DNA of 64,000 nt from Oligoflexus sp. (GCF_035712445.1 NZ_DASTAT010000115.1:25583-89582); one strand, 5' to 3'. Positions 35,566-51,071 are shown, counted from the stretch's first letter. Notes: generated by a model from the sequence alone, not told the origin. Numbers and translations: made by a program.

Positions 35566-37200
35566 ATGTCAGCTTCGATGCAGACATCAGCCGCGCATCT
35601 GCTGGTTTTGGTGCCTGTCTATAATCACGCGGCCACGCTGGGCAAGGTTTTGCGTGAACTCAGCACGGTGAATCTGCCGATCCTTGTTGTCGACGACGGC
35701 AGCACGGATGGAATCGAGGCTGTGCTCATCGACTTCCCGCAGCACACCATTTTGAAACATCAGACGAACCGCGGCAAAGGCGAGGCCCTGCGTACCGGTA
35801 TGCAATGGGCCATGAGCCAGGGCTTTACGGCTGTGCTGACCTTCGATGCGGACGGCCAGCACAGGGTCGCTGATATTCCCAAACTCCTGTCTGCGTGGCG
35901 CGAGGACCCTGAGGCGATCACGATCGGAGTCAGGGATTTCAAGGCCGCAGCCAGTGGATCTGTGCCCTTCGGATCAAAAATTGGGCGTTTCCTCTCGAAT
36001 CTCTTTGTATGGGTCGAGACTGGTCAGGCCATGCAGGATACGCAGTCGGGGCTTCGCATCTATGGGCTGCATCGGCGGCTGCTGCGGAGTCTGAAGGCTC
36101 AGCGCTATCATTTCGAAGTCGAAATCCTGGTGCGTGCGGTGTGGATGGGGCTCAACGTTCACACTGTTCCGGTCGGTGTGATCTATCCGCGTCCTGAAGA
36201 GCGCATTTCACATTTTCGCGTGTGGGTCGACACCCTGCGCATGGCGGGCCTGCATTGCCAATTTTTAGGGCTGCGGCTTTTCATGCTGCTGGGACTTTAC
36301 CAGCAAAGGCCCTTGAAAAGTCCCGAAGAGATCGGTGGGGTCGGGGTCATAGCCTGGCTCGTCCAGAGGCTCGGGATTCGCTTCTGTTATACACTTATGA
36401 TCCTGCCGGTGATGTTCATCTTCCTCAAGGAAAGCTCGCGGCGAGCGGCGATTATGGAATTTCATGCTCAGCTTAGGCCCGCTGCGAGTCGATGGAATCG
36501 GCTGAAAGCGAGTCTCAGCAACTTCTGGTATTTCGGGATGAGTCTTTTGGATCGTTTGAATCCTGCGGGCAATTCGAGCATCCTGGCCCCGGCGAGCCTG
36601 AGCGAGGAAACCTGGAAGCATTTGCTCGGACAGGGCAGCATCTTTGTGGGCGCACACTATGGCGATTGGTTTTTGGTCGCTTTGCATAAACGCGACGTCT
36701 TCGATCGGCCCATGGGGCTTGTCATGGATCCGCGCGGAACGCCGGAGTTCATGGACAAGGTCATGGAGCTTTATGGCGATCGGATTCGCATCATAGATCC
36801 TTTCCAGGAGCCCTTGGCCTTTGCCCTGGAGGTGAAACAAATTCTGGACGAGCGCGGGAACGTCTGTTTTTTGGGTGACAGGCTTCAGGGTAAAGCTCGG
36901 GAATACACGGTGAGTCTGCCTTTCCTGGGCAAGGAAGCCGCGTTTCTGCAAGCGCCTTTTGATTTGGCTCTGCGCCTTCGGGTTCCCGTTCTTTATTTTG
37001 GCTGCACCAAACAGGGCATCACGCCTGCAGCCCCTTATCAGATTTTTCTTCATTCCATCTACGACGGACGGGAGCGTTTGCCGGCCAGGGCCCTGGTCGA
37101 ACGCTACGTCAGGCATCTGGAATCACAGGTGCAGACGGCCCCCCAGCATTGGTTTAACTTCATTCCCTTCTGGCGTCAGTTGGAGACGGAGAGAGCATGA
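35566..37200 (+). CDS. GT2 glycosyltransferase fused to an LpxL-like acyltransferase (aryl-polyene-cluster type)
   Basis: VPVYNH, VVDDGSTD, TFDADGQH, DTQSGLRIY, HFEVEIL; C-terminal half GAHYGDW, LGDR, PQHWFNFIPFW. Confidence 0.85.
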   Translation: MSASMQTSAAHLLVLVPVYNHAATLGKVLRELSTVNLPILVVDDGSTDGIEAVLIDFPQHTILKHQTNRGKGEALRTGMQWAMSQGFTAVLTFDADGQHRVADIPKLLSAWREDPEAITIGVRDFKAAASGSVPFGSKIGRFLSNLFVWVETGQAMQDTQSGLRIYGLHRRLLRSLKAQRYHFEVEILVRAVWMGLNVHTVPVGVIYPRPEERISHFRVWVDTLRMAGLHCQFLGLRLFMLLGLYQQRPLKSPEEIGGVGVIAWLVQRLGIRFCYTLMILPVMFIFLKESSRRAAIMEFHAQLRPAASRWNRLKASLSNFWYFGMSLLDRLNPAGNSSILAPASLSEETWKHLLGQGSIFVGAHYGDWFLVALHKRDVFDRPMGLVMDPRGTPEFMDKVMELYGDRIRIIDPFQEPLAFALEVKQILDERGNVCFLGDRLQGKAREYTVSLPFLGKEAAFLQAPFDLALRLRVPVLYFGCTKQGITPAAPYQIFLHSIYDGRERLPARALVERYVRHLESQVQTAPQHWFNFIPFWRQLETERA

Positions 37201-38417
37201 GCTTGAATTGGTCGCAGCTCTTCGCACGCGCGGAACGAATGCGTGACGAGGTCCTGCACGAAGCATGGGCCAAGGAACTGCCCCTTCTTTTGCAGCCGTC
37301 CACCCGCCCCGGAAGCCTGCTGCTGCTTGCCCTTGGTTTTATGTGGCCCTTTGGGGTGATCCTGGATGAGAAAAATCTTCTGAGAGGCGGCACAGCGTTT
37401 CGTTTGGACGAAAGGCTGATTCCTGCTGATCTGATGCCGCCTTCCGAGCGGATTGAAGCGGATCCGGTGGCGCCCGCGTTCTGGTCCCGTCTTGAAGAAT
37501 GGCAGCTGACCCTTTGCACGTCGGGCTCCACGGGCGAACCCAAACGCATTCAAAAGACTGGTGCCGGACTTCTGGCCGAGGTGCGGGATCTTGCGGGGAT
37601 TTATGGGTGGCGTGAAGGGGATGCCATACTCTCTTTGGTGAGTCCGCTGCATATTTACGGGCTCCTTCATAGTTTTCTTCTGCCCTGGTTTTGCCGGGCG
37701 TCTGTTGAGTTCGTGAATTTTCAAAAAGGCCCGATTGATATTCCGGACCTTGCATCGACCCGCTACGCCGCTGTCATTGCAGTTCCAGCGACCTGGAGCT
37801 TTGTGAAGGATCTTCTGAACAGTCGGTCGCTCGGAACTCTGGTGATGTCGGGCGCGCCTTTTGGAGCAAAGCGCCGCGGCGAGCTGCAGGAGTTTTCACG
37901 CAAGCCTGAACGGGCCGTGGAAATCCTTGGCAGCACGGAAACCGGCGGGATTGGAATGAGATCCCTGCTTGAGCCCGAGGATTGTTTTCGCTGTCTCCCG
38001 TCGGTGCGCATCATGGAAGAATCGGGCGAACAATGGGTGCTATCCCCTTATGTGCAGCCTGCGACGCGCTGGGTGCTGGCGGATCGATTGGAAGTGAAGT
38101 CTGATGGGCGCTTTCTGCATCAGGGTCGCAGTGATCGCATTTTCAAGTATGCAGGACAGCGCTACGCACTTGCCGAAGTCGAGACGGCATTGAGCCGAAT
38201 CCATGCGCATGCGGAGACGCTGGCCTTCTTTCATCGTGATGATGCCGTTGCACAGGGCGGCTGGCTGGAGGCCTGGATTGAATCCGACCCCTTGCCGGTG
38301 GATGCCGAGGTCCGGCGACGCTATCAGGCGGAAACGCCCGCTCCTTTCCCGCACCGCGTGCATTTCATGCCTTCCTTTCCAAGGGATGGGCAGGGGAAGG
38401 TCCAAATCCTGACTTAA
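37197..38417 (+). CDS. AMP-binding acyl-CoA/ACP ligase (ApeH-like)
   Basis: CTSGSTGEPK P-loop, VSPLHIYGLL, ILGSTETGGIG, GRSDRIFK; overlaps the previous gene (ATGA). Confidence 0.82.
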   Translation: MSLNWSQLFARAERMRDEVLHEAWAKELPLLLQPSTRPGSLLLLALGFMWPFGVILDEKNLLRGGTAFRLDERLIPADLMPPSERIEADPVAPAFWSRLEEWQLTLCTSGSTGEPKRIQKTGAGLLAEVRDLAGIYGWREGDAILSLVSPLHIYGLLHSFLLPWFCRASVEFVNFQKGPIDIPDLASTRYAAVIAVPATWSFVKDLLNSRSLGTLVMSGAPFGAKRRGELQEFSRKPERAVEILGSTETGGIGMRSLLEPEDCFRCLPSVRIMEESGEQWVLSPYVQPATRWVLADRLEVKSDGRFLHQGRSDRIFKYAGQRYALAEVETALSRIHAHAETLAFFHRDDAVAQGGWLEAWIESDPLPVDAEVRRRYQAETPAPFPHRVHFMPSFPRDGQGKVQILT

Positions 38418-38472
38418 GCTTCCTTTTCCATGATAAAATGTTTCCATTCTTCAAAGATTGGAATGGAAGCTT

Positions 38473-41184
38473 ATGCGCCAGCTCTTTCGTTGGATCATCA
38501 TATGGGCAGCGTGGATGGGCCTCACGCCGACCCTTCAGGCTGCGTTTCCCGTGCAATGGTCGGATGCCGGTGTTTCCTACTGGGTTGAGGACCAGCCCGC
38601 GACGATCCATGACGTGATGCAAAGGCAGGCGACGGATTTCAAGCAGACCACCAGCTTGCAGCCCAATGTTGGCTTTTCCGCGCATTATCTCTGGTTTTCC
38701 ATCGCGCTGAAAAACACGGATACCAGGGCGCTGGACTTTATCTTTGAAGTCGCCTATCCACGTCTTGAGGACCTTGACCTTTATGCGGTCAACGGTCAGG
38801 GGCAGATCCGCTATCATTTTGTCTCCGGTTCGGAGACCCCGGCTGCGGAAAGGCCGATCCACCATGTGAACTATGCCTTTCCCATCCGCGCCGAAGCAGG
38901 CGAGGACCTGCGCTTTTACATCCGAACGCGAACGGACAATCCTCTCCGCTTTCCGGTGAAAGTCTGGCCGCTGGAGCAGTTCCGAGCCTATCAGCAGCAG
39001 CACCAGCTGACCCAGGGACTTTACTATGGTGGCATTGTCATCATGGTGATCTATAACCTTTTCGTTTTCTTTGGGACGCGCAATCGTTCGTACCTCTTTT
39101 ACTGTCTCTTCGTTTTTTCCACAGCAGCTTACCTGGCGAGCGATAGCGGGCTTCTGACTCACTATGTTTTTACGGATTCGAGTTTTTGGAACAATAAGAT
39201 TACGCTGGTCGCGATCTTAGGCGCGAACGTCTTCGGCCTTTATTTCGCGGCCTATTTTATGAACCTGCGCGAGCATGATCCGTTGGTCAACCGCCAGATA
39301 TCGCGGTTGATTCCGGTGCTGTCGTCGATGCTGCTTGCTGTGCCCTTCTTTCATTATCATGTGATCGGTATCATTCTGACGATCGTGAGTACGCTGAATT
39401 CCCTGGTGCTGATGCTTTTGACCGTTCGTGGACTGATGCGGAAGCAGCGTGAGGCCTATTTCTATGCGGCGGCGTGGTCGAGCCTTCTGCTTGGAACGTT
39501 CACCTATGGGCTTTTGTCTTTGGGATTCATCCAGCCGAATTTTTTTACGGAAAAGGGGCTGCAGCTGGGATCCTTCTTTGAAGTGACGATCCTGTCCTTT
39601 GCTCTGGCCGATCGACTGAATCAGTTGCAACTGGGATTGAAAGAGGCCAACAGTCGCCTGGCTCATTACCTGCAGCATGTGGAAGAACAGGTGCTGATCA
39701 AAACGCGGGATATCCGTTCCATCATGGAGCATATTCCGATGGGGGTGTTTTCGATTATTCCCGGGCTCAAGGTGCATAAGGATCACTCGCTCTTCATGGA
39801 AAAACTCTTCTACAGAAAAGAGATTGAAGGGATGGATGCGATCCAGCTGCTGTTTGAATATGCTCTGATCGATGCCGATCAGAAGGCCCAGATGGCATCG
39901 GCGCTGCAGCTTTCGATCGGTGAGGATCAGTTGGCGTTTGAATTGAACAGGCCTGGCCTATTGGAGCAGGTGGAAACTCAATTCAAAGGCGAGCGGCGGA
40001 TTCTGCATCTTCTTTGGAATCCGGTTTGCAATGATGCGGGCGTGCTCGAAAAGGTCCTGGTAACGGCGCATGATATCACGCGGCTTTTGATGCTGGAGGA
40101 TGAATCGCGCAGCCAACGGCAGGAGCTTGGCATGATTCGAAGGATTCTGGAAGTCCCGGTTGCCTCGTTCCATTCCTTTGTTCGAAAGGCGGAGCAGCTG
40201 CTGCAGGAGTGTGAAGCCATGGCGGAGGACGGTCGCGAGACCTATAAGAAGGTTCTGCTGTTTCACATTCACACGCTGAAGGGCACGGCGCGCTCGCTTT
40301 ATTTCAATGAGATCGCAGAGCTTTGCCATCATATTGAAGAAAAGTGCGCCGCGGCCACGGCTGCAGAGCTGAAGGTGATGCTGGGTGAAGTGAAGGGGAT
40401 GGTGCATAGGTATCGGGATACGGCTGTGAATAAGCTGGGACGGCGTCTGGACACCCATGAGGATCTGCGCCTGCCGACCGGATTTTTACGGGATATTCTG
40501 CAGGATTTGGCCGCTGCCGGTGCGAGCGGACGAGGGGCTCAGACGAGAATGCAAACGCTGGAAGCTGCGCTTTTCCGGCCTTTGAACGAAGTCTTGAAGG
40601 AATCGCTCAAGGCCACGGTGCCCTTGGCTTTGGAGCTGGGCAAAGCGGAGCCGCGGATCGAGATCGCTGCTGAGGGTTGGGGCGTGACGCAGGCCGGGGC
40701 GGATATGCTGATGGGCGTGCTCACGCATCTAGTGCGGAACAGCATGGATCATGGTTTGGAGCCTGCTGGGGAACGGCAGAAGGCTGGGAAGAATCCTCAA
40801 GGCTTGATTACGGTGACCGCGGATGTGGATGCGGGGCAGCTCAAGCTTGCATTTGCGGATGATGGTCGTGGTTTGAATCTGAAGGAGCTTAGGAAGATCG
40901 GGATGCAGAAAGGGTTGATTCAAGGGAATGCTTCGCTTTCTGATGTCGTGGAGCTGGTGTTTCAGCCCGAGCTTTCCACCCAGAATCATGTGTCGCTGGT
41001 ATCTGGACGCGGGATAGGGATGGCGGCTGTTCGGGATTATCTGCGGCGCGAGGGTGGGGATGCTGTGATCAGCCTGGGGGCTGTGGATGAAGGGCTGGGG
41101 TTTGTGGAGTTTAGTGTGAATATTTTGCTGCCGCCTGCCGTGTGGAGCAGGCTGCAGCCGGTGGGGTTGTCGAAGTCGGCTTAA
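38473..41184 (+). CDS. 7TM-DISM membrane sensor fused to HPt and CheA-type HATPase domains
   Basis: 7TMR-DISMED2-like ectodomain, seven TM helices, PAS-like segment, HTLKG HPt, HLVRNSMDHG, DDGRG, SGRGIGM. Confidence 0.82.
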   Translation: MRQLFRWIIIWAAWMGLTPTLQAAFPVQWSDAGVSYWVEDQPATIHDVMQRQATDFKQTTSLQPNVGFSAHYLWFSIALKNTDTRALDFIFEVAYPRLEDLDLYAVNGQGQIRYHFVSGSETPAAERPIHHVNYAFPIRAEAGEDLRFYIRTRTDNPLRFPVKVWPLEQFRAYQQQHQLTQGLYYGGIVIMVIYNLFVFFGTRNRSYLFYCLFVFSTAAYLASDSGLLTHYVFTDSSFWNNKITLVAILGANVFGLYFAAYFMNLREHDPLVNRQISRLIPVLSSMLLAVPFFHYHVIGIILTIVSTLNSLVLMLLTVRGLMRKQREAYFYAAAWSSLLLGTFTYGLLSLGFIQPNFFTEKGLQLGSFFEVTILSFALADRLNQLQLGLKEANSRLAHYLQHVEEQVLIKTRDIRSIMEHIPMGVFSIIPGLKVHKDHSLFMEKLFYRKEIEGMDAIQLLFEYALIDADQKAQMASALQLSIGEDQLAFELNRPGLLEQVETQFKGERRILHLLWNPVCNDAGVLEKVLVTAHDITRLLMLEDESRSQRQELGMIRRILEVPVASFHSFVRKAEQLLQECEAMAEDGRETYKKVLLFHIHTLKGTARSLYFNEIAELCHHIEEKCAAATAAELKVMLGEVKGMVHRYRDTAVNKLGRRLDTHEDLRLPTGFLRDILQDLAAAGASGRGAQTRMQTLEAALFRPLNEVLKESLKATVPLALELGKAEPRIEIAAEGWGVTQAGADMLMGVLTHLVRNSMDHGLEPAGERQKAGKNPQGLITVTADVDAGQLKLAFADDGRGLNLKELRKIGMQKGLIQGNASLSDVVELVFQPELSTQNHVSLVSGRGIGMAAVRDYLRREGGDAVISLGAVDEGLGFVEFSVNILLPPAVWSRLQPVGLSKSA

Positions 41185-41194
41185 GGTTTTTTGT

Positions 41195-43261
41195 TTAGAG
41201 CGGTGCTGGGGTCAGGTGGATCCGAGGACCGTCCGGAGTTGTTGCTACGAAGACCAACTGTTGACCGAAGGCAGCGAGACTGAATGCATCGCTGGAGCCA
41301 TTGACGTTAATGTCTTTGACTATAATTGTTCCTGACTCTGTACCATCTGACTTCCAAGGTTCGAGATTGTGAATTCCATCGTGAGCTCTGAAGTACAATA
41401 AGTTGCCCACAGCTGTGAGCGAGGTCATCGAGCTGCCGATTGTTCCTGTTCGAATGTCTTTCACAAGGACAGTCCCGGACTCAGTGCCATCAGATTTCCA
41501 GAGTTCGGTGCCGCTCGTGCCATTATCAGCTGTAAAGAATAATGTTCCATTGACAGTCGTGAGGTTTCCCGGAGTACTTCCGTTTAGGCCGGTGCGGACA
41601 TCTTTTACCATCATTGTTCCTGCTTCCGTACCGTCCGTTTTCCAGAGTTCACGGCCTGAAGTCCCGTTGTCTGCCCGGAAATACAGGTATCCTCCGAGAA
41701 TTGCAAAGGGCGCCGCGCCAGCTGCTGAAAGACCATCCGAGTTTCCAACGCGTATGTCTTTAACCATGACGGTGCCTGCGTCTGTACCATCAGACTTCCA
41801 GAGCTCCCGTCCGTAATCGCTCAGTTCTGCGCTGAAGAACAGTGTGCTTCCCATGGCCATGAAATCTGAGGGTACAGTGTCGGTCATGTTATCCAAGTCT
41901 TTGACCTTGACTGTTCCGCTTTCTGTGCCGTCTGATTTCCAAAGATCGAAATCACCGTTGCCATCGTCAGCTGCAAAGTAAAGGATTCCGTTGACGTTTG
42001 TTAGCGATGCTGGCGAACTGGATGATGAACCTGAATTTATATCCTTGACCAAAGTCGTTCCAATTTCTGTCCCATCCGATTTCCACAATTCAGCCCCGGT
42101 CGTGCTTTCAATTCCTGTAAAGTAGAGAGTTCCATTGACGTTGATCAAAAGGCTGGGGACAACCGATGCGCTCGGTTTAACTTTGACAGTGCCTGCTGTC
42201 GTACCATCCGTTTTCCAAAGGCGAACTCCCGATCCATCATCTGCAGTAAAATAGAGGACCCCTCCCACGCTCTCAAAATTCGAGGGAGAGCTATTCGACG
42301 CCCCTGTGTAAATGTCTTTGACTAGCGTCGTACCCGCGAGCGTTCCATCCGTTGCCCAAAGTTCGGCTCCATGGGTGCTTGAATTTCCTTGGAAGTAAAC
42401 CTTGCCAGCAAACTCGGCAAAACCACTTTGGATGTTGAGTCCTGCTGACGAGATGACATTCGGCACCAGCCGATATTCCTTATAAGCATTCACATTGCCA
42501 TAACCACTCGAAGGAACACAGGCCGATTCACTCAAACGACTGTAGCGATCCGATGTGGTGGCATCGGAGGCATAGGAATAATAAGTCGCAACCGTATGAT
42601 AAGAAGCATTGCTATCATCACAATCCGTAGTCCCGAGACTCGCGGCTAGATACCCAGCCGGCAGCGAAGCTCCGGTGCAGAGCGACCCGGAACTGGCAAT
42701 CGAATGCCCATCATTGTCCGCATCCCGATGCGAGTAGGCGAGCGTCTGCCATTTCGTGGCGTCGGTGCTATCACAATCGCTATAGACAACCTGAGCCAAC
42801 GTTAAAGTATAAGCAGTATTGGAAGGACAAACCTGAGAGGACTGCGAACCATCCGCATAGCCATCTCCATCCGCATCCGTGAGTTTATAGCGAGTCACCC
42901 GAAGCGCATCGTTTTCACCAGGACAAAGATCCTGATCATCGGTGACGCCGTCCATATCTGTATCAGCAGTAGCACTGGTGTTTCCCGAACCTGATCCTGT
43001 GCTCCCACTGCCTCCCGTATTCGTATTGCCTGAGCTATCGTTTGTGGTCGAATCAGTTGATGGCGAAGGGCTGGTTTCGCTGGCGACATCCTTATCATTC
43101 TTGCCCGCAGGGCTGCCGGGAAGGGGACCCGAAGACTTGTCCGTGCCTCCTGTTTCCTCACCCGTGGCCGGGGCCTCGTCGCCTTGAGCGCTGCCCTTTC
43201 CGCCTGGTTTGGTGCAGGCGGTGAAGGTGATGAATAGAGACATGGCTATGAGCGCTTTCAT
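41195..43261 (-). CDS. ELWxxDGT-repeat lipoprotein
   Basis: Lipobox ITFTAC from ATG 43261; Ser/Thr/Gly linker; DxDxDG and DCDD metal-binding-like motifs; eight [EDR][LP]W[KA][ST]DGT repeats. Confidence 0.88.
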   Translation of the reverse strand: MKALIAMSLFITFTACTKPGGKGSAQGDEAPATGEETGGTDKSSGPLPGSPAGKNDKDVASETSPSPSTDSTTNDSSGNTNTGGSGSTGSGSGNTSATADTDMDGVTDDQDLCPGENDALRVTRYKLTDADGDGYADGSQSSQVCPSNTAYTLTLAQVVYSDCDSTDATKWQTLAYSHRDADNDGHSIASSGSLCTGASLPAGYLAASLGTTDCDDSNASYHTVATYYSYASDATTSDRYSRLSESACVPSSGYGNVNAYKEYRLVPNVISSAGLNIQSGFAEFAGKVYFQGNSSTHGAELWATDGTLAGTTLVKDIYTGASNSSPSNFESVGGVLYFTADDGSGVRLWKTDGTTAGTVKVKPSASVVPSLLINVNGTLYFTGIESTTGAELWKSDGTEIGTTLVKDINSGSSSSSPASLTNVNGILYFAADDGNGDFDLWKSDGTESGTVKVKDLDNMTDTVPSDFMAMGSTLFFSAELSDYGRELWKSDGTDAGTVMVKDIRVGNSDGLSAAGAAPFAILGGYLYFRADNGTSGRELWKTDGTEAGTMMVKDVRTGLNGSTPGNLTTVNGTLFFTADNGTSGTELWKSDGTESGTVLVKDIRTGTIGSSMTSLTAVGNLLYFRAHDGIHNLEPWKSDGTESGTIIVKDINVNGSSDAFSLAAFGQQLVFVATTPDGPRIHLTPAPL

Positions 43262-43556
43262 GGGCGACTCCAAAATTATTTGGAAATCCACTTTCAACGC
43301 TATTCGGTGAGGCCCGGTTAAATTATTAAGCAGGTTGAGTTTTAATTTTTATTTCCCAATGCAGTGTTCAATGCTGAAAACGGAAGGCGGGTTGTTTGAA
43401 TCCAAGTTGATGGATTCATAAGGCAATTTAGGGGTCCAAAAAAACCAAACATGGCCTCGTCACACAGCGTCAGGAACTTGAACTTTTGGCTTCTGCCCGG
43501 CGAGTTAAACGCGCCGGACGGGAGCTTGATGATCAGTTTGAGCTAAAAATGGGACT

Positions 43557-44267
43557 TCACTGCAGGCTGATGAAGTGGGGCCGTGACAGGAAACTTTCTT
43601 CCAAACGAATCCGCGAATTATCCTGACGGGGATGGCTTTCCCTTTTGATTTCAAGGGTTAACTCCTTACCGCGGGGGAAGCGGGCCAGCTGCTCGCGACT
43701 GAAGACCAAACGTAAGGATTCTTTCGTATAAAGGCACTCTTTCACAGAGGGATCAGCCGTGGATATCACAGTGGGCTCGTAGTTCAGGCAGAGGGTGATT
43801 TCATCTTCACCGAAGAGTGGTTCACCTTCCATGAGCACGGTCAGCTCGCGATCACCGCGGAGCGCAGTTCCTTCAGACGGAACTTTGATGGAAGTCGGTG
43901 CGGGAACCTTGGCCTCTGTGACAAAGACTTCGCCATCGTTATTCACATAGCGGAATTCCAGAGGCATGTTCGGCGTGCGGGTCATGGGCATTTCAAGATT
44001 ATAGCTCGCCGAGTTGAGTACGTTGCTATACTTCATAGGCGTGCTGTTGAAAGTGATCGTGCTGCCATCGGTAAGCTTAAGACTGGTACCGAGATTGTCT
44101 TCATAATGAAACGAAGCCGAGGCTTTGAGTTGGCTGCTGCCTTCATCGTAGGTCACTTCGTAGGATTGCTCGATGGTGCTCTGCTTCACATCCGCAGAAC
44201 GGCCGGTGCCGCAAGCTGTCAGGGCAAGCAGGGGTAAAAGAAGCCAAGAGCGAGTTTGTTGCTGCAT
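43557..44267 (-). CDS. Hypothetical lipoprotein
   Basis: MQQQTRSWLLLPLLALTACG lipobox; beta-rich; no family recognised. Confidence 0.7.
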   Translation of the reverse strand: MQQQTRSWLLLPLLALTACGTGRSADVKQSTIEQSYEVTYDEGSSQLKASASFHYEDNLGTSLKLTDGSTITFNSTPMKYSNVLNSASYNLEMPMTRTPNMPLEFRYVNNDGEVFVTEAKVPAPTSIKVPSEGTALRGDRELTVLMEGEPLFGEDEITLCLNYEPTVISTADPSVKECLYTKESLRLVFSREQLARFPRGKELTLEIKRESHPRQDNSRIRLEESFLSRPHFISLQ

Positions 44268-44432
44268 GTGTGTGTCTCCGCAAGCCAAGGGTTGGTGTCT
44301 GGCTCTTATCCTTTCGCAAATCCTATGCCGCCACTTTTCAGGTCATTTTGGCCGAAAAGGCGCAACTTTCAGTCCTCAGCAGGACGTATCACGGCAGGAA
44401 TTTGTTGCAGCTGTGAACGAGAGTTTACACGC

Positions 44433-46364
44433 TCAGGCAGGCGTTGAGGGAATTTCCACATAGTAGAGGGCCTTGGCATCCCGGTCATCACGGACCTGTA
44501 TGCCGGCTCCCTCCAGATCGAAGCTCTTGAAGCGCTCGCGCATTTCCGCGTCCAGGCTCATCCAGACCTTCCTTTGAATGATGATGACGCTGCTGGGGGC
44601 GCCATCGGGGAAGATGGTGCGGCGCATGCCTTCATATCGCGTTGCCAGAATCACGGAGCGGCCATAGACGTCGTATTCACGGGTACCTGTCGAAGGGAAA
44701 TAGCCTTCGATCGTATCGTAGGCGATCCCGATGCTGCAGTGAATAGGTTCGGCATAGGCGAAGAGACGAGCCTCTTCATGAAAAATCTGCACAAAACGCA
44801 GAGCCAGCTGCACCGAGGAATTGGCAAGGTTTCCCATGCCCGGCGTTCGGAAGGGAAAACCCACCGAGCATAGAAAGCCATCACCCATCTCTTTGATGCG
44901 GTAGCCTGTGGCCGTCAGCTGCTCGGGATCGTAGCCTTCGTCAATAATGGAAAGACAGCGTTTGATGGAGTTTTCCAAAAACGACTTCACATGAATATGC
45001 TCGATCCGCGAGGAACCGATGATATCAAAGGCCAGAACGCAGGCCGTGCTCTTGCCGGTCGGCATCGTTTCTTCCAGGGGTTTGCCCTGCTGCATCATAT
45101 GCAGCTGATGCGGATAGAACACCTTGGCGAGCTGATTATAGCTGTGGCGCCGCATTTTTTCCTCGACCCTGAGGTTTTGAAAGAAGCGGTCATAGATCTG
45201 CGCGATGGCAAAGGACTGGCAGATGGTGAAGATCAGAAAGCCGATATGGAAGAAAAAGGCCTGCAGTTCATTGAACACAAAGATATTGATGAGGTCGATC
45301 ACCGAAGCCAGAAGAATGGCCAGGGCCCCGATGGCAATGGTCAGGGCCGCCGTTCTTTTCAGGTAAACAGCCCGGAAGATGACGAGGATGAACCAGATGG
45401 AAAAACCCGACCCCAGAATGAAGAACCAGTTGATCAAATGCGTGAAGGTCAAAGAGGGCAGGAGGAGCGTGCAACTCAGAACCACGAAACTGCCAATGGC
45501 CACCAGCACCCAGCGCATCTTTAATTCATCAGGGAAAAGACGCTGGACATAAAACCAGATCAGCGGCGGGCAGAGATAAAGGCTCAGGTATTCCATGCGG
45601 AACATCGTCACCCAGCTAAGGTCATCGATGAAAAACTCAAAGATGCGCGTGCCGACCGTCGAAAGGCGCGTGCCCACCGCGAGGCAGCAGAAGGAAAAGG
45701 CAATCGTCACGATTTCACGGCGCAAAAAGAAGAGAGCCAGATGATAGATGCCAATGGCCCAGATGCCACCGATGAAGGCGATTTCGATGAGTTGATTCAT
45801 CCGCGCCGTATGCGTCAGACTTTCGAAACTTCCTATGCGCATCGCTCGCCAGGTGCCGCCGCGCGCATGATGGAAATTGGAGATCTGCACGACGATGTCA
45901 TAGCTTCCCGCATCCGGCAGGCGAAGAATGCCTGAATTCCTGGAGGGAATGGATGTTTCCTCGGTCGTGCCGACGTTTCCGGCCTTGAAGAACTCAACGC
46001 CATTCACAAAAATCTTCACGGCTGTCGACATGTGCGGAATCTCAAGTGCCATGTCCTTGGCATCACCGACATCGACCCGCAGATGATAGGTCGCATATCC
46101 ACAGCAGACTTTCAGCTGCTTATGCCAGGTCGCGGGCATGGGGAAATATTGGATAGGTATCCGTTTTTTCACCTCGTCCGGAGATAAAAGCTCCATCCAG
46201 AAAAATTCCCAATGACCCTGAAGAAAGGTGGCATCCCCACGCGCGAAATTCCATTTGCGCAGATCAAGGTAACCAGGCTGCGTGGGAATAGCCGCCTCAC
46301 TCGCCGATGCAGTGAAGATGCCGGCAAGAAGCAGGGTCCATAACAATCGAAGCAGTTTTCCCAT
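44433..46364 (-). CDS. 7TM-DISM sensor with class III adenylate/guanylate cyclase domain
   Basis: Signal peptide, 7TM region, AFDIIGSS, KEMGDG, YDVYGRSVILATRYE. Confidence 0.85.
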   Translation of the reverse strand: MGKLLRLLWTLLLAGIFTASASEAAIPTQPGYLDLRKWNFARGDATFLQGHWEFFWMELLSPDEVKKRIPIQYFPMPATWHKQLKVCCGYATYHLRVDVGDAKDMALEIPHMSTAVKIFVNGVEFFKAGNVGTTEETSIPSRNSGILRLPDAGSYDIVVQISNFHHARGGTWRAMRIGSFESLTHTARMNQLIEIAFIGGIWAIGIYHLALFFLRREIVTIAFSFCCLAVGTRLSTVGTRIFEFFIDDLSWVTMFRMEYLSLYLCPPLIWFYVQRLFPDELKMRWVLVAIGSFVVLSCTLLLPSLTFTHLINWFFILGSGFSIWFILVIFRAVYLKRTAALTIAIGALAILLASVIDLINIFVFNELQAFFFHIGFLIFTICQSFAIAQIYDRFFQNLRVEEKMRRHSYNQLAKVFYPHQLHMMQQGKPLEETMPTGKSTACVLAFDIIGSSRIEHIHVKSFLENSIKRCLSIIDEGYDPEQLTATGYRIKEMGDGFLCSVGFPFRTPGMGNLANSSVQLALRFVQIFHEEARLFAYAEPIHCSIGIAYDTIEGYFPSTGTREYDVYGRSVILATRYEGMRRTIFPDGAPSSVIIIQRKVWMSLDAEMRERFKSFDLEGAGIQVRDDRDAKALYYVEIPSTPA

Positions 46365-46414
46365 GCCCTCGTAGTCGGCATTTTCGGCTGAAAGATAAGG
46401 ATCTTGCGAAGATT

Positions 46415-46723
46415 TTAAAGCAGGCTTTTGATGAACTGAACCATGCCCTGCGAGTAAATTTTATCGTCTGCAAAAATTTTCCAGAAAGCCGTGTGATCCT
46501 GGACTTTTAAGGAAAGGTGAACACGAGTTCCGGGAAGGATAGGGGCCGGGAATTTGGCTTTCCTGACCTCGCTCAGCGTCAGACTCTGATCCAGGATCCT
46601 TTGCAAATGATCGAGCACCAGATCGAGCTGCGCCACAGCAGGGAAAATCGGATGTCCGGGAAAATGCCCATCGAAACAGGGATGGTCCGCGGGAATCAGG
46701 ATGTTTTCAACAGTAAAGTCCAC
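46415..46723 (-). CDS. Hotdog-fold dehydratase (ApeI-like)
   Basis: HPCFDGHFPGHPIFPAVAQL, KFPAPILPG. Confidence 0.82.
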   Translation of the reverse strand: MDFTVENILIPADHPCFDGHFPGHPIFPAVAQLDLVLDHLQRILDQSLTLSEVRKAKFPAPILPGTRVHLSLKVQDHTAFWKIFADDKIYSQGMVQFIKSLL

Positions 46724-47429
46724 CGTTCACCTGAATCGTTGTGCCATTGATATAGGAGCTTGCGTTGGAGGCGAGAAAACCAACCACCTGCGCGACTTCA
46801 TCCGGTTCACCCATGCGTCCTATGGGAATGGCTTTGATCTGCTCAGGACCCACGACAGCGTCGGTCATGTCGGTCGCGATCCAGCCGGGACTCACGCAAT
46901 TGACGAGGATCCCTTTGCGAGCCACTTCCCGCGCGAGTGATTTGCTGGCCGCGACCAAAGCGCCTTTGGCCGCCGCATAATTGGTCTGTCCAGCCTGTCC
47001 CGTTTCACCGGCGAGACTGGCCAAAAGAATGATGCGACCCCAACGCTGTTGAATCATATGGGGAAGAAAGGCCTTGTTCAGGTGATAGAAGGAATTCAAA
47101 GCCAGCTGAATCGGCTCAAAAAAAGCCTTTTCCTCAAGGAAATAAAAAAGACCATCCGCCTTGCTCGCGGCATTGTGAATCACGATATCAAAACCCGGCT
47201 GCCAATCCAGGGCCGTTTTCACACAGGTTTCAATGGATCCGGGATCATTCAAATCCATCGAAAATGCGCGGATATGATCCTCGCCGTTCAGATCCTTGAT
47301 CAAGGCGCTGGCCGTGTCCGCACCCTTGCAGTATGTGAAGGCTACCGAATGATGCGGGAGCGAAGCAAAATGCCGAACGAGGGCGGCGCCAATGCCGCGA
47401 TTGCCGCCGGTGATGAAAACGCGCTTCAT
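46707..47429 (-). CDS. 3-oxoacyl-ACP reductase (FabG/ApeQ-like)
   Basis: TGGNRGIG, GQTNYAAAK (YxxxK), VNCVSPGWIATDM, NGGL. Confidence 0.9.
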   Translation of the reverse strand: MKRVFITGGNRGIGAALVRHFASLPHHSVAFTYCKGADTASALIKDLNGEDHIRAFSMDLNDPGSIETCVKTALDWQPGFDIVIHNAASKADGLFYFLEEKAFFEPIQLALNSFYHLNKAFLPHMIQQRWGRIILLASLAGETGQAGQTNYAAAKGALVAASKSLAREVARKGILVNCVSPGWIATDMTDAVVGPEQIKAIPIGRMGEPDEVAQVVGFLASNASSYINGTTIQVNGGLYC

Positions 47430-47860
47430 GATACCGATCCTCGGGTTTCCTGGTAAAAACTCATCATGGATCGGGCCACGGTTTCACCCTGGTATTCCAG
47501 GGTAATGCTCGCCTGGCTTAAGGCATCCATCTCGGTTTCTATGGTGACTTCAGCCAGCATCGCATCCCCGGGAACCAAGGGTGGTCTTTGCAGCAGCGCC
47601 CATTCCCTGATGGATAATAAAAATCCAGGGGCCGGGGCCCCATGATCCGAACCGCGCAGCGCGCCGCAAACCGTCGCTGCGGCCTGAGCCATTATCTCAA
47701 GCAGCCAGTGATAGCGAAAACTTTCGCTTTCGTTCCAGTAGGGCTTGCCCTTCGCGAGGATACTGCTCACACGACCCTTCTTTTGACCGGGATCCAGATC
47801 AATCAGATCATTGACGAGGAGCATGGGGCCCTTATGCGGAATCAAGGTATCGGGAGCCAT
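47426..47860 (-). CDS. Hotdog-fold dehydratase (ApeP-like)
   Basis: LIPHKGPMLLV, LEIMAQAAA, PGFLLSIR. Confidence 0.8.
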   Translation of the reverse strand: MAPDTLIPHKGPMLLVNDLIDLDPGQKKGRVSSILAKGKPYWNESESFRYHWLLEIMAQAAATVCGALRGSDHGAPAPGFLLSIREWALLQRPPLVPGDAMLAEVTIETEMDALSQASITLEYQGETVARSMMSFYQETRGSVS

Positions 47861-48555
47861 CGGGTGACCAGACTTTCTCCTGAAAGGGAGCGGACCAAGC
47901 GGGCCGCAAGAGGACGTCCCTGGTTCAGGAGCCAGGGTGGAATCCTTGAATCGTGTTCCGTAAAAATTTCAGGACTGCTGCTGTTAAAATCGTCGAGCGT
48001 TCCCTCGCGGCAGAAATCGAGGACCTGCAGTGCATTGTCAGCCTGATTGCCGAGCAAAAGGATTTCCGCCTGGGCCCGATCGGCTCCATTCGATCCCAGA
48101 TACTCATGAGCATGAATGACAAAGCTCATGGAATCGAGGCCATGCACCATGCGCAATTGCGCAAGCTGCAGGCAGTTATCCGCAGACAGAAAACCACCCG
48201 AGAGAGCATAGCAGGCATGCCGAATGCCGTGAGTCATGGATAAATAGGCGAGCGCCGCATTCTGCACGGAATGCTGAAATTCCTTGGGTGAAACAGGCAG
48301 ATCATGATCGGCGATGGCCCGCGTGACCTGAAGCATGGCACTCAGCTCGCCAAAGCCACTGGAATAAAAGATTGGCGCTTCCTGCTCACGGGCTTTCCGC
48401 ATGGCATCGGGAGCGAGAGCATCCAAAGCGGCAAAGGCTTGCACGACCGATTTTTGAAGAGCGGTCATGCGCCGGAAAAAAGGTGAAGCCAGGCGCAGCT
48501 GACTTTCCGCTGTCCACTCTTCCGACACTGCTGCGTGAAGATAAACCTTGTTCAT
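47842..48555 (-). CDS. Ketosynthase chain-length factor (aryl-polyene type)
   Basis: RRMT, SGFGEL and SPKEFQHSVQNA match the SPxxFxxSVHNA CLF pattern; no catalytic Cys. Confidence 0.78.
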   Translation of the reverse strand: MNKVYLHAAVSEEWTAESQLRLASPFFRRMTALQKSVVQAFAALDALAPDAMRKAREQEAPIFYSSGFGELSAMLQVTRAIADHDLPVSPKEFQHSVQNAALAYLSMTHGIRHACYALSGGFLSADNCLQLAQLRMVHGLDSMSFVIHAHEYLGSNGADRAQAEILLLGNQADNALQVLDFCREGTLDDFNSSSPEIFTEHDSRIPPWLLNQGRPLAARLVRSLSGESLVTRWLPIP

Positions 48556-49655
48556 GGCTGCTCCGCCGCAAAAAGCAGGGAAATATTGCTGCCGCCGAAG
48601 CCAAAGGAATTGCTGAGGGCCTTCTTATGCCCGCGCAGCCGCAGCATCGCAACGGTGATGGCCGCTTCCAAAGCACCGGCCGCACCCAGATAATGGCCGC
48701 TGAGGCCCTTGGTTGCATGCAGACGATCCAGCTGCCCAAACACAGCCGTCACAGCGTCGGCTTCAGCGGCATCGTTGCCTTCCGTGCCGGTGCCGTGCGC
48801 GTTGATATAATCCACAGCATCCGGGGTCCAGCCTGCATTCGCTAAAGCCAATTCCATGGTTTTTTTCATCCAGACGCCCTGAGGTGCAGGCTGCACCATA
48901 TGATGCGCCTCGGAAAGAGCGGCATAGGCGCGAATCGTGGCGAGTCCCGGGCTTTTCGGTTCTTTTTCCAAAAGCAGAAGAGCCCCGCCTTCACCCAGAT
49001 TGATGCCTTTGCGATTCGGTGAAAAAGGCTGGCAGACATCATGATCGAGGATCTGAAGACTGTCGAAGCCATGCAGGGTCACGCGGTTTAAGATATCAAT
49101 GCCCCCCGCAATCGCAACCTTGCACATGCCGGAGCGCACCGCATCAAAAGCCTGGCCGATGGCCTGGGCCGCAGCCGCGCAGCTTGATGAAAACGTGAAG
49201 TGAGGGCCGCGGAGCGGAAAGATTTTCCGCATTTCCTGCGTGATCCATACCTGCTGCATATCAGGGGAAAGGAAATTCATAAGCGGCAGACCCGAGGCGC
49301 GATGCTGGGAAAGAGCAGAAAAAAATCCATCAATGCCACAGGTCGTCGTGCCCACGAAAAAACCGATATCCTGCGGCGCGAAACGATCAAAGACCCCGGT
49401 CTCGCTGTGCAGCCGCTCGATCATGCCCTGCATCACGCGGCGCATGACCTGATCGGATTTCATGCGGTCCTCGGGTGGAACGCCGTAAGCCTCCAAAGGC
49501 AATTCGCCGAGCGGAGCCGGGATCCATTCCGCAAAACGGTGATCGCGTCTTATACCCGCTTTTTTGTCGATAACGGCCGCACCCAGGTCCTGCCAGCACG
49601 AGCCAAGAGCCGACGCGACGCTGATGCCTGTGATGCTGATGGGGGCGCTTTGCAT
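48552..49655 (-). CDS. Beta-ketoacyl-ACP synthase (aryl-polyene-type KS)
   Basis: SSSCAA catalytic Cys, AHGTGT and GHYLGAAG histidines, SNSFGFGGSN. Confidence 0.9.
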   Translation of the reverse strand: MQSAPISITGISVASALGSCWQDLGAAVIDKKAGIRRDHRFAEWIPAPLGELPLEAYGVPPEDRMKSDQVMRRVMQGMIERLHSETGVFDRFAPQDIGFFVGTTTCGIDGFFSALSQHRASGLPLMNFLSPDMQQVWITQEMRKIFPLRGPHFTFSSSCAAAAQAIGQAFDAVRSGMCKVAIAGGIDILNRVTLHGFDSLQILDHDVCQPFSPNRKGINLGEGGALLLLEKEPKSPGLATIRAYAALSEAHHMVQPAPQGVWMKKTMELALANAGWTPDAVDYINAHGTGTEGNDAAEADAVTAVFGQLDRLHATKGLSGHYLGAAGALEAAITVAMLRLRGHKKALSNSFGFGGSNISLLFAAEQP

Positions 49656-49658
49656 GAT

Positions 49659-49943
49659 TTAGTTCGCTGCCTGCATTTGGCTTTGGTGGATGGCTTGAGC
49701 GATGCTGCTGACGTTCCGCAGAACACTGCGGCCGTTCTCATCATTTTTGACTTTGATCGCATAGCGTTTATCGAGTGCGACCACGAGTTCCAGGACATCT
49801 ATGGAATCGAGTCCAAGACCATCCTGAAAAAGCGAGAGCTGATCGTCAATGCGGTCCGGCGTCATGCCGGGCAGATTGGAAACCTCAAGCAGGAGCTGCT
49901 TGATTTCGCTTTTGATTTCGTCGACTGACTTTTGCTCCGGCAT
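49659..49943 (-). CDS. Acyl carrier protein (ApeE-like)
   Basis: LFQDGLGLDSIDVLEL phosphopantetheine Ser motif. Confidence 0.92.
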   Translation of the reverse strand: MPEQKSVDEIKSEIKQLLLEVSNLPGMTPDRIDDQLSLFQDGLGLDSIDVLELVVALDKRYAIKVKNDENGRSVLRNVSSIAQAIHQSQMQAAN

Positions 49944-49973
49944 AGTAATATCAACCTCCCAAGGTACTCATTC

Positions 49974-51071
49974 TCAAGAATCCTGCTGCGGCCTCAGCAC
50001 CATCAAACTGTGGCTGATCCCGAGGTTGTCGATGATGTTCTCCAGACGGAAACCGGCCTCATGGGTCAGGCGCACTATCGTTCGGGTGTCATACATTTTA
50101 CTTTGCCCATTGGCAATGGCCGTGAAATACGGCGAGGTTTGCAAGAGGCAATACGCAGGCACCTTCGGCTGCCGATCCCAGAATGTGTCCAGGATGAAAA
50201 GACGCCCATCGGGTGTAAGCGAGGATCGTGCCAGCTGCAGGATTTTCAAAACGTCTTCTTCGTTAAAGCACACCAGAAACTGGCTCATCCATGCCGCCTG
50301 GAATCCGGAAGGCAAAGTGGCGTGAGGAGACAGCAGGTCAACGGCATGGTAATGCAGGCGTTGGCGCCAGGGTTCATTCTGACTTTCCGCCTGGGAAAGT
50401 TCAATCTGCGAAGGAAGATCGGCGATCGTGACATTCAGCTGGGGCTTCGCAGTCAGACAGGTGCGGGCAAAGCGTCCCGTATTGCCGCCGATATCGAGGA
50501 GGCTCCGCACATCCTCCGCGAATATCATCGGCAGAGCTGCGCCAAATGCTGAATCAGAATAGTAATGATCAAAAGCGAGCCAGGACTTGCGTATGTGGTC
50601 CGGCAGCTCATTCAGCCCCTCATACACGGTGGGCCAGGGGCCGAGCTCCTTCAATCCGGCAGGTTTGCCGGTACGCAGCGCCTCTTCCAGGTGAAAAAGA
50701 CCCTTGAAACACACGTCATAGATGAAATCAAAGTTGATGGCCGTCATCGTATCCAGGGCCAGCACATGCCCGAGTTTGGTCAGATGGAAACGATCGTCCT
50801 GTTGCCGCAGTGCGCCCATGGCCAGACCGGATTCGAAAAGAATGCGGACAGCATAAACGCTCAGATCAAGACGTTCCGCCGCACCGTCCACGCTCAAACC
50901 TTCACCGACGGCGTCTTCAAGTGCAGTCAGGACTCCCATGCGCTTCATCGCCATGCAGACCATGAAGCTGACAGGAGCAAAGGCAAGTTTCTGAGCTTCC
51001 AGCATGGCTTCTTCGAGATTTTGCCGCCCGGGCGAAAAGCGGGGAGTGGTTTGGAATAGGGAATCGAGCAC
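49974..51071 (-). CDS. SAM-dependent O-methyltransferase (ApeB-like)
   Basis: EAQKLAFAP N-terminus, LLDIGGNTG, WMSQFLVCF, SPYFTAIANGQSKMY; GTG 51071 six nt after AAGGAG. Confidence 0.85.
   Translation of the reverse strand: MLDSLFQTTPRFSPGRQNLEEAMLEAQKLAFAPVSFMVCMAMKRMGVLTALEDAVGEGLSVDGAAERLDLSVYAVRILFESGLAMGALRQQDDRFHLTKLGHVLALDTMTAINFDFIYDVCFKGLFHLEEALRTGKPAGLKELGPWPTVYEGLNELPDHIRKSWLAFDHYYSDSAFGAALPMIFAEDVRSLLDIGGNTGRFARTCLTAKPQLNVTIADLPSQIELSQAESQNEPWRQRLHYHAVDLLSPHATLPSGFQAAWMSQFLVCFNEEDVLKILQLARSSLTPDGRLFILDTFWDRQPKVPAYCLLQTSPYFTAIANGQSKMYDTRTIVRLTHEAGFRLENIIDNLGISHSLMVLRPQQDS

What the first reader, a model, noticed from the sequence alone, without database searches (positions are those of the whole stretch)
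35566..51071. Aryl-polyene-type PKS cluster split into two convergent arms
Seen: the + arm holds the GT2-acyltransferase and AMP ligase (35566-38417); the - arm holds the methyltransferase, ACP, KS, CLF, DH, KR and DH (46415-51071). Four unrelated genes separate them. Established: these families are the core of aryl polyene/flexirubin BGCs, which are usually one contiguous operon. Not seen in the window: a second KS, second ACP, thioesterase, LolA-like carrier, MMPL exporter, lysophospholipid acyltransferase or ammonia-lyase. Inference: a minimal, rearranged pathway that could make an unusual (shorter or differently anchored) glycosylated acyl-polyene lipid.
Basis: partly seen in the sequence, partly recalled or inferred. 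Interest (0 to 1): 0.75.

Follow-up and report, generated by a model that had tools for sequence, protein, structure and literature searches.

The report
Cut-down aryl-polyene pigment-lipid gene cluster
An Oligoflexus genome carries a nine-gene remnant of the widespread bacterial aryl-polyene pigment-lipid cluster: two clean deletions removed the export, second-lipid and starter-supply genes, yet selection has kept the rest intact in five related species, giving a natural minimal version to test.

Summary
The + arm is a GT2-acyltransferase (ApeJ-like) plus a compact AMP-ligase (ApeH-like). The - arm is methyltransferase, ACP, KS, CLF, DH, KR and DH. Four unrelated genes lie between the arms.

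- The KS falls in the ApeO clade, not with FabF or ApeR. The CLF profile matches only ApeC structures.
- Both arms co-occur with the same flanks in five Oligoflexus genomes, one of which matches O. tunisiensis Shr3T by exact genome length.
- The convergent layout is not a rearrangement. A sister species (G013) has the full 18-gene cluster at the orthologous locus, already convergent.
- The window's version is that cluster minus two internal blocks: TAL-thioesterase-LolA-exporter-ApeN, and LPLAT-ApeG-ACP2-ApeR.
- It also has a species-variable insert (1.5-12.7 kb) at the convergent junction.
- Homologues of the lost genes were not found anywhere in the five genomes.
- All nine retained genes are intact, with dN/dS about 0.04-0.2.

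The retained set matches the published chromophore module plus ApeJ. The likely product is an aryl-polyene acyl glycolipid made without the dedicated conjugated-fatty-acid branch or exporter. That product is inferred, not shown.

This is a new variant of a known kind and of moderate interest. This scan has noted other stripped-down APE-type loci on other DNA.

The parts
35566..37200 (+). ApeJ-like bifunctional GT2 glycosyltransferase / LpxL-type acyltransferase (544 aa)
   Evidence: Pfam Glycos_transf_2 covers residues 14-137 and Lip_A_acyltrans covers 355-537. DDGS and DAD motifs are present. Identity to the orthologues is 87/84/70% in G005/G006/G007 and 44% in G013; dN/dS vs G005/G006 is 0.07-0.08.
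37197..38417 (+). ApeH-like compact adenylating ligase (406 aa). It presumably loads the aromatic starter onto the ACP.
   Evidence: AMP-binding. Best NCBIfam hit is TIGR02372, 4-coumarate-CoA ligase, 109 bits, below its cut-off. Motifs TSGSTGEPK, STETG and GRSD are present. It aligns end to end with the ligases of the full clusters. The ATGA overlap with the upstream gene suggests translational coupling.
38458..46364 (.). Spacer of four genes unrelated to the pathway: 7TMR-DISM/HPt kinase, 700-aa repeat lipoprotein, 243-aa lipoprotein, 7TMR-DISM adenylate cyclase.
   Evidence: Pfam. The kinase and cyclase belong to families with dozens of paralogues in this genome. The gene content at this junction differs among G000, G005, G006 and G007; only the 243-aa lipoprotein and the cyclase are partly shared. 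The spacer is 8.0, 6.5, 12.7 and 1.5 kb respectively. The 243-aa lipoprotein is unlinked in G007 and present in G012, which has no APE KS. There are no flanking repeats and no tRNA.
46415..46723 (-). ApeI-like dehydratase subunit (102 aa)
   Evidence: Pfam ApeI-like, 36.6 bits, above its cut-off. The HFPGHPIFPA hot-dog motif is visible in the sequence. dN/dS 0.17-0.21.
46707..47429 (-). ApeQ/FlxB-like ketoreductase (240 aa)
   Evidence: adh_short_C2 E 1e-48. FlxB 207 bits and FabG 216 bits, both below cut-off. TGGNRGIG, NAA and YAAAK motifs are present.
47426..47860 (-). ApeP-like dehydratase subunit (144 aa)
   Evidence: Pfam ApeP-like, 26.3 bits, just under the 27-bit cut-off. It is the positional orthologue of the DH that follows the CLF in all full clusters.
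47842..48555 (-). ApeC-like chain-length factor (237 aa)
   Evidence: Ketoacyl-synt_2 E 4e-9. A profile of 8 orthologues hits only the ApeC chains 6qsp_B (E 2e-8) and 7f28_A (E 3e-3) in the whole PDB.
48552..49655 (-). ApeO-like elongating ketosynthase (367 aa)
   Evidence: Cys159, the EAHH motif (residues 249-252, first His) and the NAHGT motif (residues 285-289, second His), and GFGG are present. Best PDB hits are X. doucetiae ApeO (6qsp_A) and A. baumannii ApeO (7f28_B). In the ML tree it sits in the ApeO clade (support 100/99), separate from ApeR and FabF.
49659..49943 (-). ApeE-like acyl carrier protein (94 aa)
   Evidence: PP-binding. Best NCBIfam hit is PRK09184, 61 bits against a 70-bit cut-off. 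The GLDSI serine motif is present. dN/dS 0.04-0.05.
49974..51098 (-). ApeB/FlxJ-family SAM methyltransferase (374 aa from the GTG; an ATG at 51071 is an alternative start)
   Evidence: Methyltransf_2 and a dimerisation domain. FlxJ family 434 bits against a 560-bit cut-off. LLDIGG motif present.

Best explanation
This is a lineage-specific, cut-down descendant of a full flexirubin/aryl-polyene-type lipid cluster.

How it arose. The ancestor is still present at the orthologous locus in a sister Oligoflexus species. It was already two convergent operons:
- GT2AT-TAL-TE-LolA-exporter-ApeN-ligase, converging on
- DH(I)-LPLAT-ApeG-ACP2-KS2-KR-DH(P)-CLF-KS1-ACP1-MT.
Two clean internal deletions removed the five genes between the GT2AT and the ligase, and the four genes between KR and DH(I). 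Unrelated genes later accumulated at the convergent junction.

What was kept. The nine retained genes match the published chromophore module plus the final transferase.

Inferred mechanism.
1. The ligase loads an aromatic acid onto the single ACP.
2. KS:CLF with KR and the two-subunit DH builds a conjugated polyene.
3. The methyltransferase decorates the ring.
4. The GT2-acyltransferase makes a sugar-phospho-lipid acceptor and takes the polyene directly from the ACP.
The pathway has no dedicated conjugated-fatty-acid branch, thioesterase or outer-membrane export system.

Status of the claims. The anatomy, the deletions, the absence of the lost genes and the purifying selection are shown. The chemistry and the location of the product are inferred.
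For: - Gene families.
- KS in the ApeO clade, with the five reduced genomes monophyletic (support 99/99).
- CLF profile matches only ApeC structures.
- Full cluster with identical flanks (HU, 199-aa protein and GNAT on the left; GT9 on the right) in G013. The same convergent ligase/DH junction occurs in G009 and G004.
- Lost genes not found. Exporter: 0 of the 5 reduced genomes, including the single-scaffold G005, against 9 genomes with full clusters. LolA-like and ApeN-like. ApeR-like: only 37-40% FabF-type hits, against 51-86% in full-cluster genomes. LPLAT: only 26-29%. ACP2, ApeG and TE in G000.
- All nine genes have no stops in four genomes. dS is above 0.7 and mostly saturated. dN/dS is 0.04-0.21.
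- Literature. E. coli delta-apeR still makes the APE lipid, and delta-apeF, delta-apeD and delta-apeJ keep partial pigment (PMC8253772). ApeO-ApeC alone gives the fully elongated polyene in vitro (PMC8358021). ApeF and ApeD are proposed to serve the conjugated fatty acid. ApeJ is proposed to add GalNAc and to use ApeE-bound APE as acyl donor (bioRxiv 10.1101/2020.12.19.423268).
Against: - No product or expression data.
- O. tunisiensis Shr3T has the same reduced cluster by my length-based identification of G005. It is formally described as non-pigmented, with colonies called 'faintly pale yellow' once (PMC4179278).
- The source of the aromatic starter is unclear. The cluster TAL is lost. The only ammonia-lyase homologue carries the Ser-His pair that, from memory, marks histidine ammonia-lyases. 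No UbiC-type chorismate lyase was found.
- Several family hits (ACP, KS, MT, KR, ApeP-like DH) fall below curated cut-offs.
- In E. coli the thioesterase and export genes are needed for the mature lipid (PMC8253772).
Confidence: 0.62

Rival explanations
1. The missing functions are supplied in trans by non-homologous or housekeeping genes: FabF/FabB and AcpP for priming and malonyl delivery, PlsC-type acyltransferases, general RND/Lol/Mla lipid traffic. The end product would then be an ordinary exported aryl-polyene outer-membrane lipid.
For: The genome has four FabF/FabB-like KS genes, weak PlsC-like hits and a YbgC-like thioesterase hit. E. coli delta-apeR and delta-apeF retain product (PMC8253772).
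Against: No homologue of the dedicated exporter, LolA-like or ApeN-like proteins was found in any of five genomes. In E. coli those genes are required for pigment (PMC8253772). Nothing ties any housekeeping gene to this locus.
Confidence: 0.15
2. The retained enzymes have been repurposed for a different product. With the TAL lost and no UbiC, the ligase would load another acid. The polyene or partly reduced acyl chain would then be attached by the GT2-acyltransferase to another acceptor, for example an LPS-core or polyprenyl-linked sugar, given the flanking heptose and GT9 genes.
For: The starter-supply genes are absent. The cluster is flanked by gmhA, a PMI-like gene and a divergently transcribed GT9 heptosyltransferase, and the GT9 neighbour is conserved in relatives. 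The type strain is described as non-pigmented (PMC4179278).
Against: The ligase aligns end to end with the ligases of the TAL-containing full clusters. The FlxJ-family ring methyltransferase is retained under strong constraint. The GT9 flank is also present next to the full cluster in G013, so it is not specific to the reduced form.
Confidence: 0.18
3. It is a decaying, non-functional relic of the full cluster.
For: Half of the ancestral genes are gone. Unrelated genes have invaded the middle. The type strain is described as non-pigmented (PMC4179278).
Against: All nine genes are intact in four species-level genomes whose synonymous sites are near saturation. dN/dS is 0.04-0.21, catalytic motifs are kept, and gene overlaps are preserved.
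Confidence: 0.05

Closest known systems
Aryl-polyene lipid (APEL) cluster apeA-R of E. coli CFT073, Xenorhabdus doucetiae and Acinetobacter baumannii
   Same: It has homologues of ApeH (ligase), ApeE (ACP), the ApeO:ApeC KS-CLF pair, ApeQ (KR), the ApeI and ApeP DH pair, ApeB (MT) and ApeJ (GT2-acyltransferase). The KS and CLF match the solved ApeO and ApeC structures best.
   Different: It lacks ApeR, ApeF, ApeD, ApeK and ApeG/L/M/N, both in the cluster and in the genome. It is two convergent operons with unrelated genes between them. The KS is about 35 residues shorter near the C-terminus than the solved ApeO proteins.
   Same: It sits at the orthologous locus with the same flanks, the same gene order and the same convergent ligase/DH junction. 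Proteins are 40-60% identical.
   Different: The full version has nine more genes: TAL, 4HBT thioesterase, LolA2-like, a 710-aa exporter, an ApeN-like lipoprotein, LPLAT, an ApeG-like membrane protein, ACP2 and an ApeR-like KS. G009 and G004 carry a flavin halogenase where the window has the methyltransferase.
Flexirubin clusters of Bacteroidota (Flx genes, e.g. Chitinophaga pinensis)
   Same: The best-scoring NCBIfam model for the MT is FlxJ family. For the KR, FlxB scores second, just behind the generic FabG model. The full Oligoflexus relatives also have a FlxA-like TAL and a LolA2_flexi-like protein.
   Different: All scores are below the curated equivalog cut-offs. There is no TAL in the window's version. 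Dialkylresorcinol (DarA/DarB) genes were not looked for.

Membership tests
Aryl-polyene (APE) biosynthetic gene cluster | ApeO-type KS with a Cys-His-His triad, phylogenetically distinct from FabF/FabB | tested here: met
   Motifs. Best PDB hits 6qsp_A and 7f28_B. ApeO clade with support 100/99.
Aryl-polyene (APE) biosynthetic gene cluster | ApeC-type chain-length factor encoded next to the KS | tested here: met
   Ketoacyl-synt_2. The profile hits only ApeC chains in the PDB. It overlaps the KS gene by 4 nt.
Aryl-polyene (APE) biosynthetic gene cluster | ApeI plus ApeP dehydratase pair and ApeQ ketoreductase | tested here: met
   ApeI-like is above its cut-off. ApeP-like scores 26.3 against a 27-bit cut-off. 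The KR has full SDR motifs.
Aryl-polyene (APE) biosynthetic gene cluster | ApeH-type adenylating ligase and ApeE-type ACP for aryl starter loading | tested here: inconclusive
   Both genes are present with their motifs. Substrate specificity was not tested. The ACP scores 61 bits against the 70-bit cut-off for PRK09184.
Aryl-polyene (APE) biosynthetic gene cluster | ApeJ-type GT2-acyltransferase fusion | tested here: met
   Two-domain architecture. It is the orthologue of the fusion found in the full clusters.
Aryl-polyene (APE) biosynthetic gene cluster | Second KS (ApeR) and second ACP (ApeF). These are part of the core-gene definition used in bioRxiv 10.1101/2020.12.19.423268. | tested here: not met
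   No ApeR-like gene, only 37-40% FabF-type hits. No ACP2 hit.
Aryl-polyene (APE) biosynthetic gene cluster | Dedicated transporter ApeM with the ApeL, ApeN and ApeG partners | tested here: not met
   Not found in G000, G003, G005, G006 or G007. The same queries match in 13 other genomes of the phylum sample.
Aryl-polyene (APE) biosynthetic gene cluster | ApeD lysophospholipid acyltransferase and ApeK thioesterase | tested here: not met
   Only weak housekeeping-type hits elsewhere in the genome.
Aryl-polyene (APE) biosynthetic gene cluster | Product is a membrane-bound aryl-polyene pigment | not testable with these tools
   The type strain with the same cluster is described as non-pigmented to faintly pale yellow (PMC4179278).
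Flexirubin (Flx) cluster | FlxA tyrosine ammonia-lyase, FlxJ methyltransferase and FlxB reductase at equivalog level | tested here: not met
   No TAL in the cluster or the genome. FlxJ scores 434 against 560 and FlxB 207 against 340, both below cut-off.
Flexirubin (Flx) cluster | Dialkylresorcinol genes DarA and DarB | not tested
   No search was made.
Primary type II fatty-acid synthase | KS groups with FabF/FabB | tested here: not met
   The tree separates the window KS from the genome's four FabF/FabB-like genes and from T. thermophilus FabF with support 100/99.

The most novel reading that the evidence does not exclude
The nine-gene set is a self-sufficient natural minimal pathway. It would make a new class of aryl-polyene glycolipid that stays in the cytoplasmic membrane (no exporter) and is anchored on an ordinary lipid or on an LPS/heptose-related acceptor. 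That would show that ApeO:ApeC, one ACP and ApeJ are enough in vivo, and that the conjugated-fatty-acid and export modules are separable add-ons.
Probability: 0.3. Interest if true: 0.55.

Novelty: new variant of a known kind. Interest (0 to 1): 0.42.

Why it matters
APE clusters are regarded as one of the most widespread bacterial biosynthetic gene-cluster families. The division of labour among their roughly 18 genes rests on a few model systems.

Here evolution has done a clean deletion experiment. One Oligoflexus subclade kept the genes assigned to the chromophore plus ApeJ. It dropped the genes assigned to the second lipid, release, export and starter supply, and then held the remainder under purifying selection through saturating divergence.

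This supports the modular model. It agrees with in vitro and knockout data that ApeR and ApeF are dispensable. It predicts that ApeJ can take its acyl donor straight from the ACP.

One carrier genome appears to be the cultured type strain O. tunisiensis Shr3T, so the prediction can be tested by ordinary pigment extraction and heterologous expression.

For annotation, strict APE rules that require ApeR, ApeF or ApeM would miss or mis-split this locus.

Tried and rejected
1. Is the 243-aa lipoprotein next to the - arm a replacement for ApeN/LolB? Rejected. It has no similarity to the cluster lipoproteins. It is unlinked in G007 and present in G012, which has no APE KS.

2. Were ORFs h166 and h199 upstream of the + arm missed cluster genes? 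The anomalously low dS of h166 is explained by an HU gene on the opposite strand; the ORF is spurious. h199 is a signal-peptide protein that also flanks the full cluster.

3. Did the deletion create a chimeric ligase N-terminus? No. The ligases align end to end.

4. Does the spacer carry a mobile-element signature? No flanking repeats and no tRNA were found. The promoter and terminator scans were not clearly above the shuffled controls.

5. Rfam scan of the window: no hits.

6. Survey of 80 ApeJ-like loci from other phyla. tblastn with Oligoflexus queries was too insensitive for the CLF and exporter to classify them. None of the 11 loci with a detectable ApeH-like ligase lacked all of the KS2, TE and LPLAT hits, so the reduced set was not reproduced there.

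7. G104, a Silvanigrellaceae MAG with no exporter hit, is a different, co-linear variant that still has KS2, ACP2 and LPLAT. G008 is a fragmented full cluster.


Full report
**Observation**

The + arm has two genes:
- A 544-aa fusion of a GT2 glycosyltransferase and an LpxL-type acyltransferase (35566-37200).
- A compact 406-aa adenylating ligase (37197-38417). The two are joined by an ATGA overlap.

The - arm, in transcription order, is:
- FlxJ-family methyltransferase.
- ACP. Its best model is PRK09184.
- KS. Its best model is PRK09185 at 268 bits, against 177 bits for FabF.
- Ketoacyl-synt_2 chain-length factor.
- ApeP-like dehydratase.
- SDR ketoreductase.
- ApeI-like dehydratase.

The last five - arm genes, KS through ApeI-like DH, overlap their neighbours. 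Catalytic motifs are intact: KS Cys/His/His, ACP serine, KR YxxxK, the ligase core motifs, the GT2 DxD and the MT SAM motif.

The four intervening genes are a 7TMR-DISM/HPt kinase, a 700-aa repeat lipoprotein, a 243-aa lipoprotein and a 7TMR-DISM adenylate cyclase.

**Whose genome**

The window lies in a 7.27-Mb, 145-contig assembly. A same-genus genome, G005, is a single record of 7,569,109 bp. That is exactly the published size of Oligoflexus tunisiensis Shr3T, with 54.3% G+C (PMC5154148). The window therefore comes from another Oligoflexus species. This is an inference from the length match and the genus label.

1. KS phylogeny. I built an ML tree from these sequences:
   - the window KS;
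   - the KS1 and KS2 genes of relatives;
   - the genome's four FabF/FabB-like genes;
   - the aligned parts of solved ApeO (6QSP, 7F28), ApeR (7F27, 4EWG) and FabF (1J3N).

   The tree puts the window KS in the ApeO clade. That clade is separated from ApeR plus FabF with 100/99 support. A profile of the CLF orthologues hits only the two ApeC chains in the entire PDB.

2. Co-occurrence. G005, G006 and G007 carry both arms. All nine genes are intact at 45-93% amino-acid identity. The outer flanks are the same: flagellin, GATase, gmhA, a PMI-like gene, HU, a 199-aa secreted protein and a GNAT on one side, and a divergent GT9 heptosyltransferase on the other.

**What is really unusual**

More distant Oligoflexus genomes have a much fuller cluster. 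In G013 it sits at the orthologous locus, with the same HU/199-aa/GNAT flank on the left and the same GT9 flank on the right. It reads:

GT2AT-TAL-4HBT thioesterase-LolA2-like-710-aa exporter-ApeN-like-ligase, converging on ApeI-DH-LPLAT-ApeG-like-ACP2-ApeR-like KS-KR-ApeP-DH-CLF-KS-ACP-MT.

G009 and G004 have the same order, with a halogenase in place of the MT. The second KS of these clusters matches solved ApeR structures best: 4EWG at 305 bits and 7F27 at 285 bits.

Three conclusions follow:
- The convergent two-arm layout is ancestral, not a rearrangement.
- The window's version equals the full one minus two internal blocks. One is about 5.2 kb and five genes. The other is about 2.9 kb and four genes.
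- No remnants are left at either deletion site. The genes on each side of a deletion now overlap.

The insert at the convergent junction varies by species. It measures 1.5 kb in G007 (one AAA/DUF4143 gene), 6.5 kb in G005 (cytochrome c and hypotheticals), 8.0 kb here, and 12.7 kb in G006 (TPR, SulP, band-7 and cyclase genes). The spacer genes are therefore not part of the pathway.

**Are the lost genes elsewhere?**

Using the G009 proteins as queries:
- The exporter matches in nine relatives with full clusters. It matches in none of G000, G003, G005 (a single scaffold), G006 or G007.
- The LolA-like and ApeN-like proteins also give nothing in those five genomes.
- ACP2 and the ApeG-like protein give nothing in G000.
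- ApeR-like queries find only FabF-type genes at 37-40% identity. True orthologues in full-cluster genomes score 51-86%.
- The LPLAT query finds only 26-29% PlsC-like hits.
- The TAL query finds a 35-37% homologue. It carries the Ser-His pair that, from memory, marks histidine ammonia-lyases.
- No UbiC-type chorismate lyase is present.

In a 131-genome sample of the phylum, 21 genomes have an ApeO-type KS. Those outside the five-genome clade that I checked have the exporter, an ApeR-like KS, or both. The five reduced genomes form one clade in the KS tree with 99/99 support. Since other genera and families carry the full set, deletion is the parsimonious direction.

**Functional or relic?**

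Pairwise Nei-Gojobori estimates against G005, G006 and G007 give dS of 0.7 up to saturation. dN/dS is 0.04-0.21 for all nine genes, and none has an internal stop. This argues strongly against decay.

**Mechanism (inferred from characterised homologues)**

Published work supplies the following:
- ApeH adenylates the aryl acid and loads it on the ACP without a CoA intermediate.
- ApeO:ApeC elongates the chain, ApeQ reduces it and ApeI:ApeP dehydrates it.
- E. coli delta-apeR still makes the mature lipid. Delta-apeF, delta-apeD and delta-apeJ keep partial pigment (PMC8253772).
- A. baumannii ApeO-ApeC alone produces the fully elongated polyene in vitro, with ApeR acting as a booster (PMC8358021).
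- In X. doucetiae, the conjugated C26:5 fatty acid is proposed to use ApeF and to be installed by ApeD. ApeJ is proposed to add GalNAc and then to acylate it with ApeE-bound APE. ApeG, ApeL, ApeM and ApeN are proposed to export the lipid (bioRxiv 10.1101/2020.12.19.423268).

The genes retained here are this chromophore module plus ApeJ. The lost genes are the conjugated-fatty-acid branch, release, export and starter supply.

I therefore expect an aryl-polyene ester on a sugar-phospho-lipid built on an ordinary lipid. It would probably not be actively exported.

**Weak points**

- The starter source is unknown.
- Several family scores are below curated cut-offs.
- O. tunisiensis is formally described as 'non-pigmented', with one mention of 'faintly pale yellow' colonies (PMC4179278). 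Note that the X. doucetiae cluster is also silent in the laboratory.

**Comparison and novelty**

By descent and by enzyme content this is an APE/flexirubin-type system. By the strict core-gene definition (apeO/R, apeE/F, apeC, apeI/P, apeQ and apeM) it fails on apeR, apeF and apeM. No paper in the searched library links APE clusters to Oligoflexia.

Earlier notes of this scan describe other stripped-down APE-type loci in unrelated phyla. I did not check those notes. Reduction as such is therefore not unique. What is new here is the clean comparison with an intact orthologous locus, and the close match between what was lost and the published functional modules.

Verdict: a new variant of a known kind, of moderate interest.

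Noticed in passing
window 33804-34304 (+) versus 33813-34097 (-): The 166-aa + strand ORF is spurious. The real gene is an HU/IHF-type DNA-binding protein on the - strand (MNKAELVEAM...). The stretch 33860-34220, which includes DNA upstream of HU, is 97-100% identical to G005, while neighbouring genes are about 85% identical. This produced an apparent dN/dS near 1 for the false ORF.
   Followed up: yes
whole genome (tblastn with window 38458-41184 and 44433-46364): The genome holds dozens of paralogues of 7TMR-DISM histidine kinases with HPt and HATPase domains, and of 7TMR-DISM or TPR adenylate cyclases. This is a very large expansion of sensory genes, two members of which sit in the spacer.
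   Followed up: partly
window 41195-43297 (-): The 700-aa lipoprotein has eight tandem copies of a 132-156-nt (about 48-aa) 'ELWKSDGT'-type repeat and no Pfam hit. One paralogue lies on contig C145.
   Followed up: no
L019 14162-15568 (G009) and L104 3858-5141 (G004): In two full-cluster Oligoflexus genomes a flavin-dependent halogenase occupies the position that the FlxJ-family methyltransferase holds in the window and in G013. The ring tailoring has been swapped within the genus.
   Followed up: partly
L023 / L105 (Silvanigrellaceae MAG, contig JBIIVH010000047.1): A co-linear variant in another family of the class: ACP-KS-CLF-DH-KR-KS2-ACP2-LPLAT-DH-GT2-TAL-ligase. The GT2 hit lacks the acyltransferase half, and no exporter hit was found in the genome.
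   Followed up: partly
window 51288-52361 (+) and 31591-33632 (+): LPS-core-type genes flank the cluster: a GT9 heptosyltransferase transcribed divergently from the methyltransferase, plus gmhA and a PMI-like gene. The GT9 neighbour is conserved next to both the reduced and the full clusters.
   Followed up: partly
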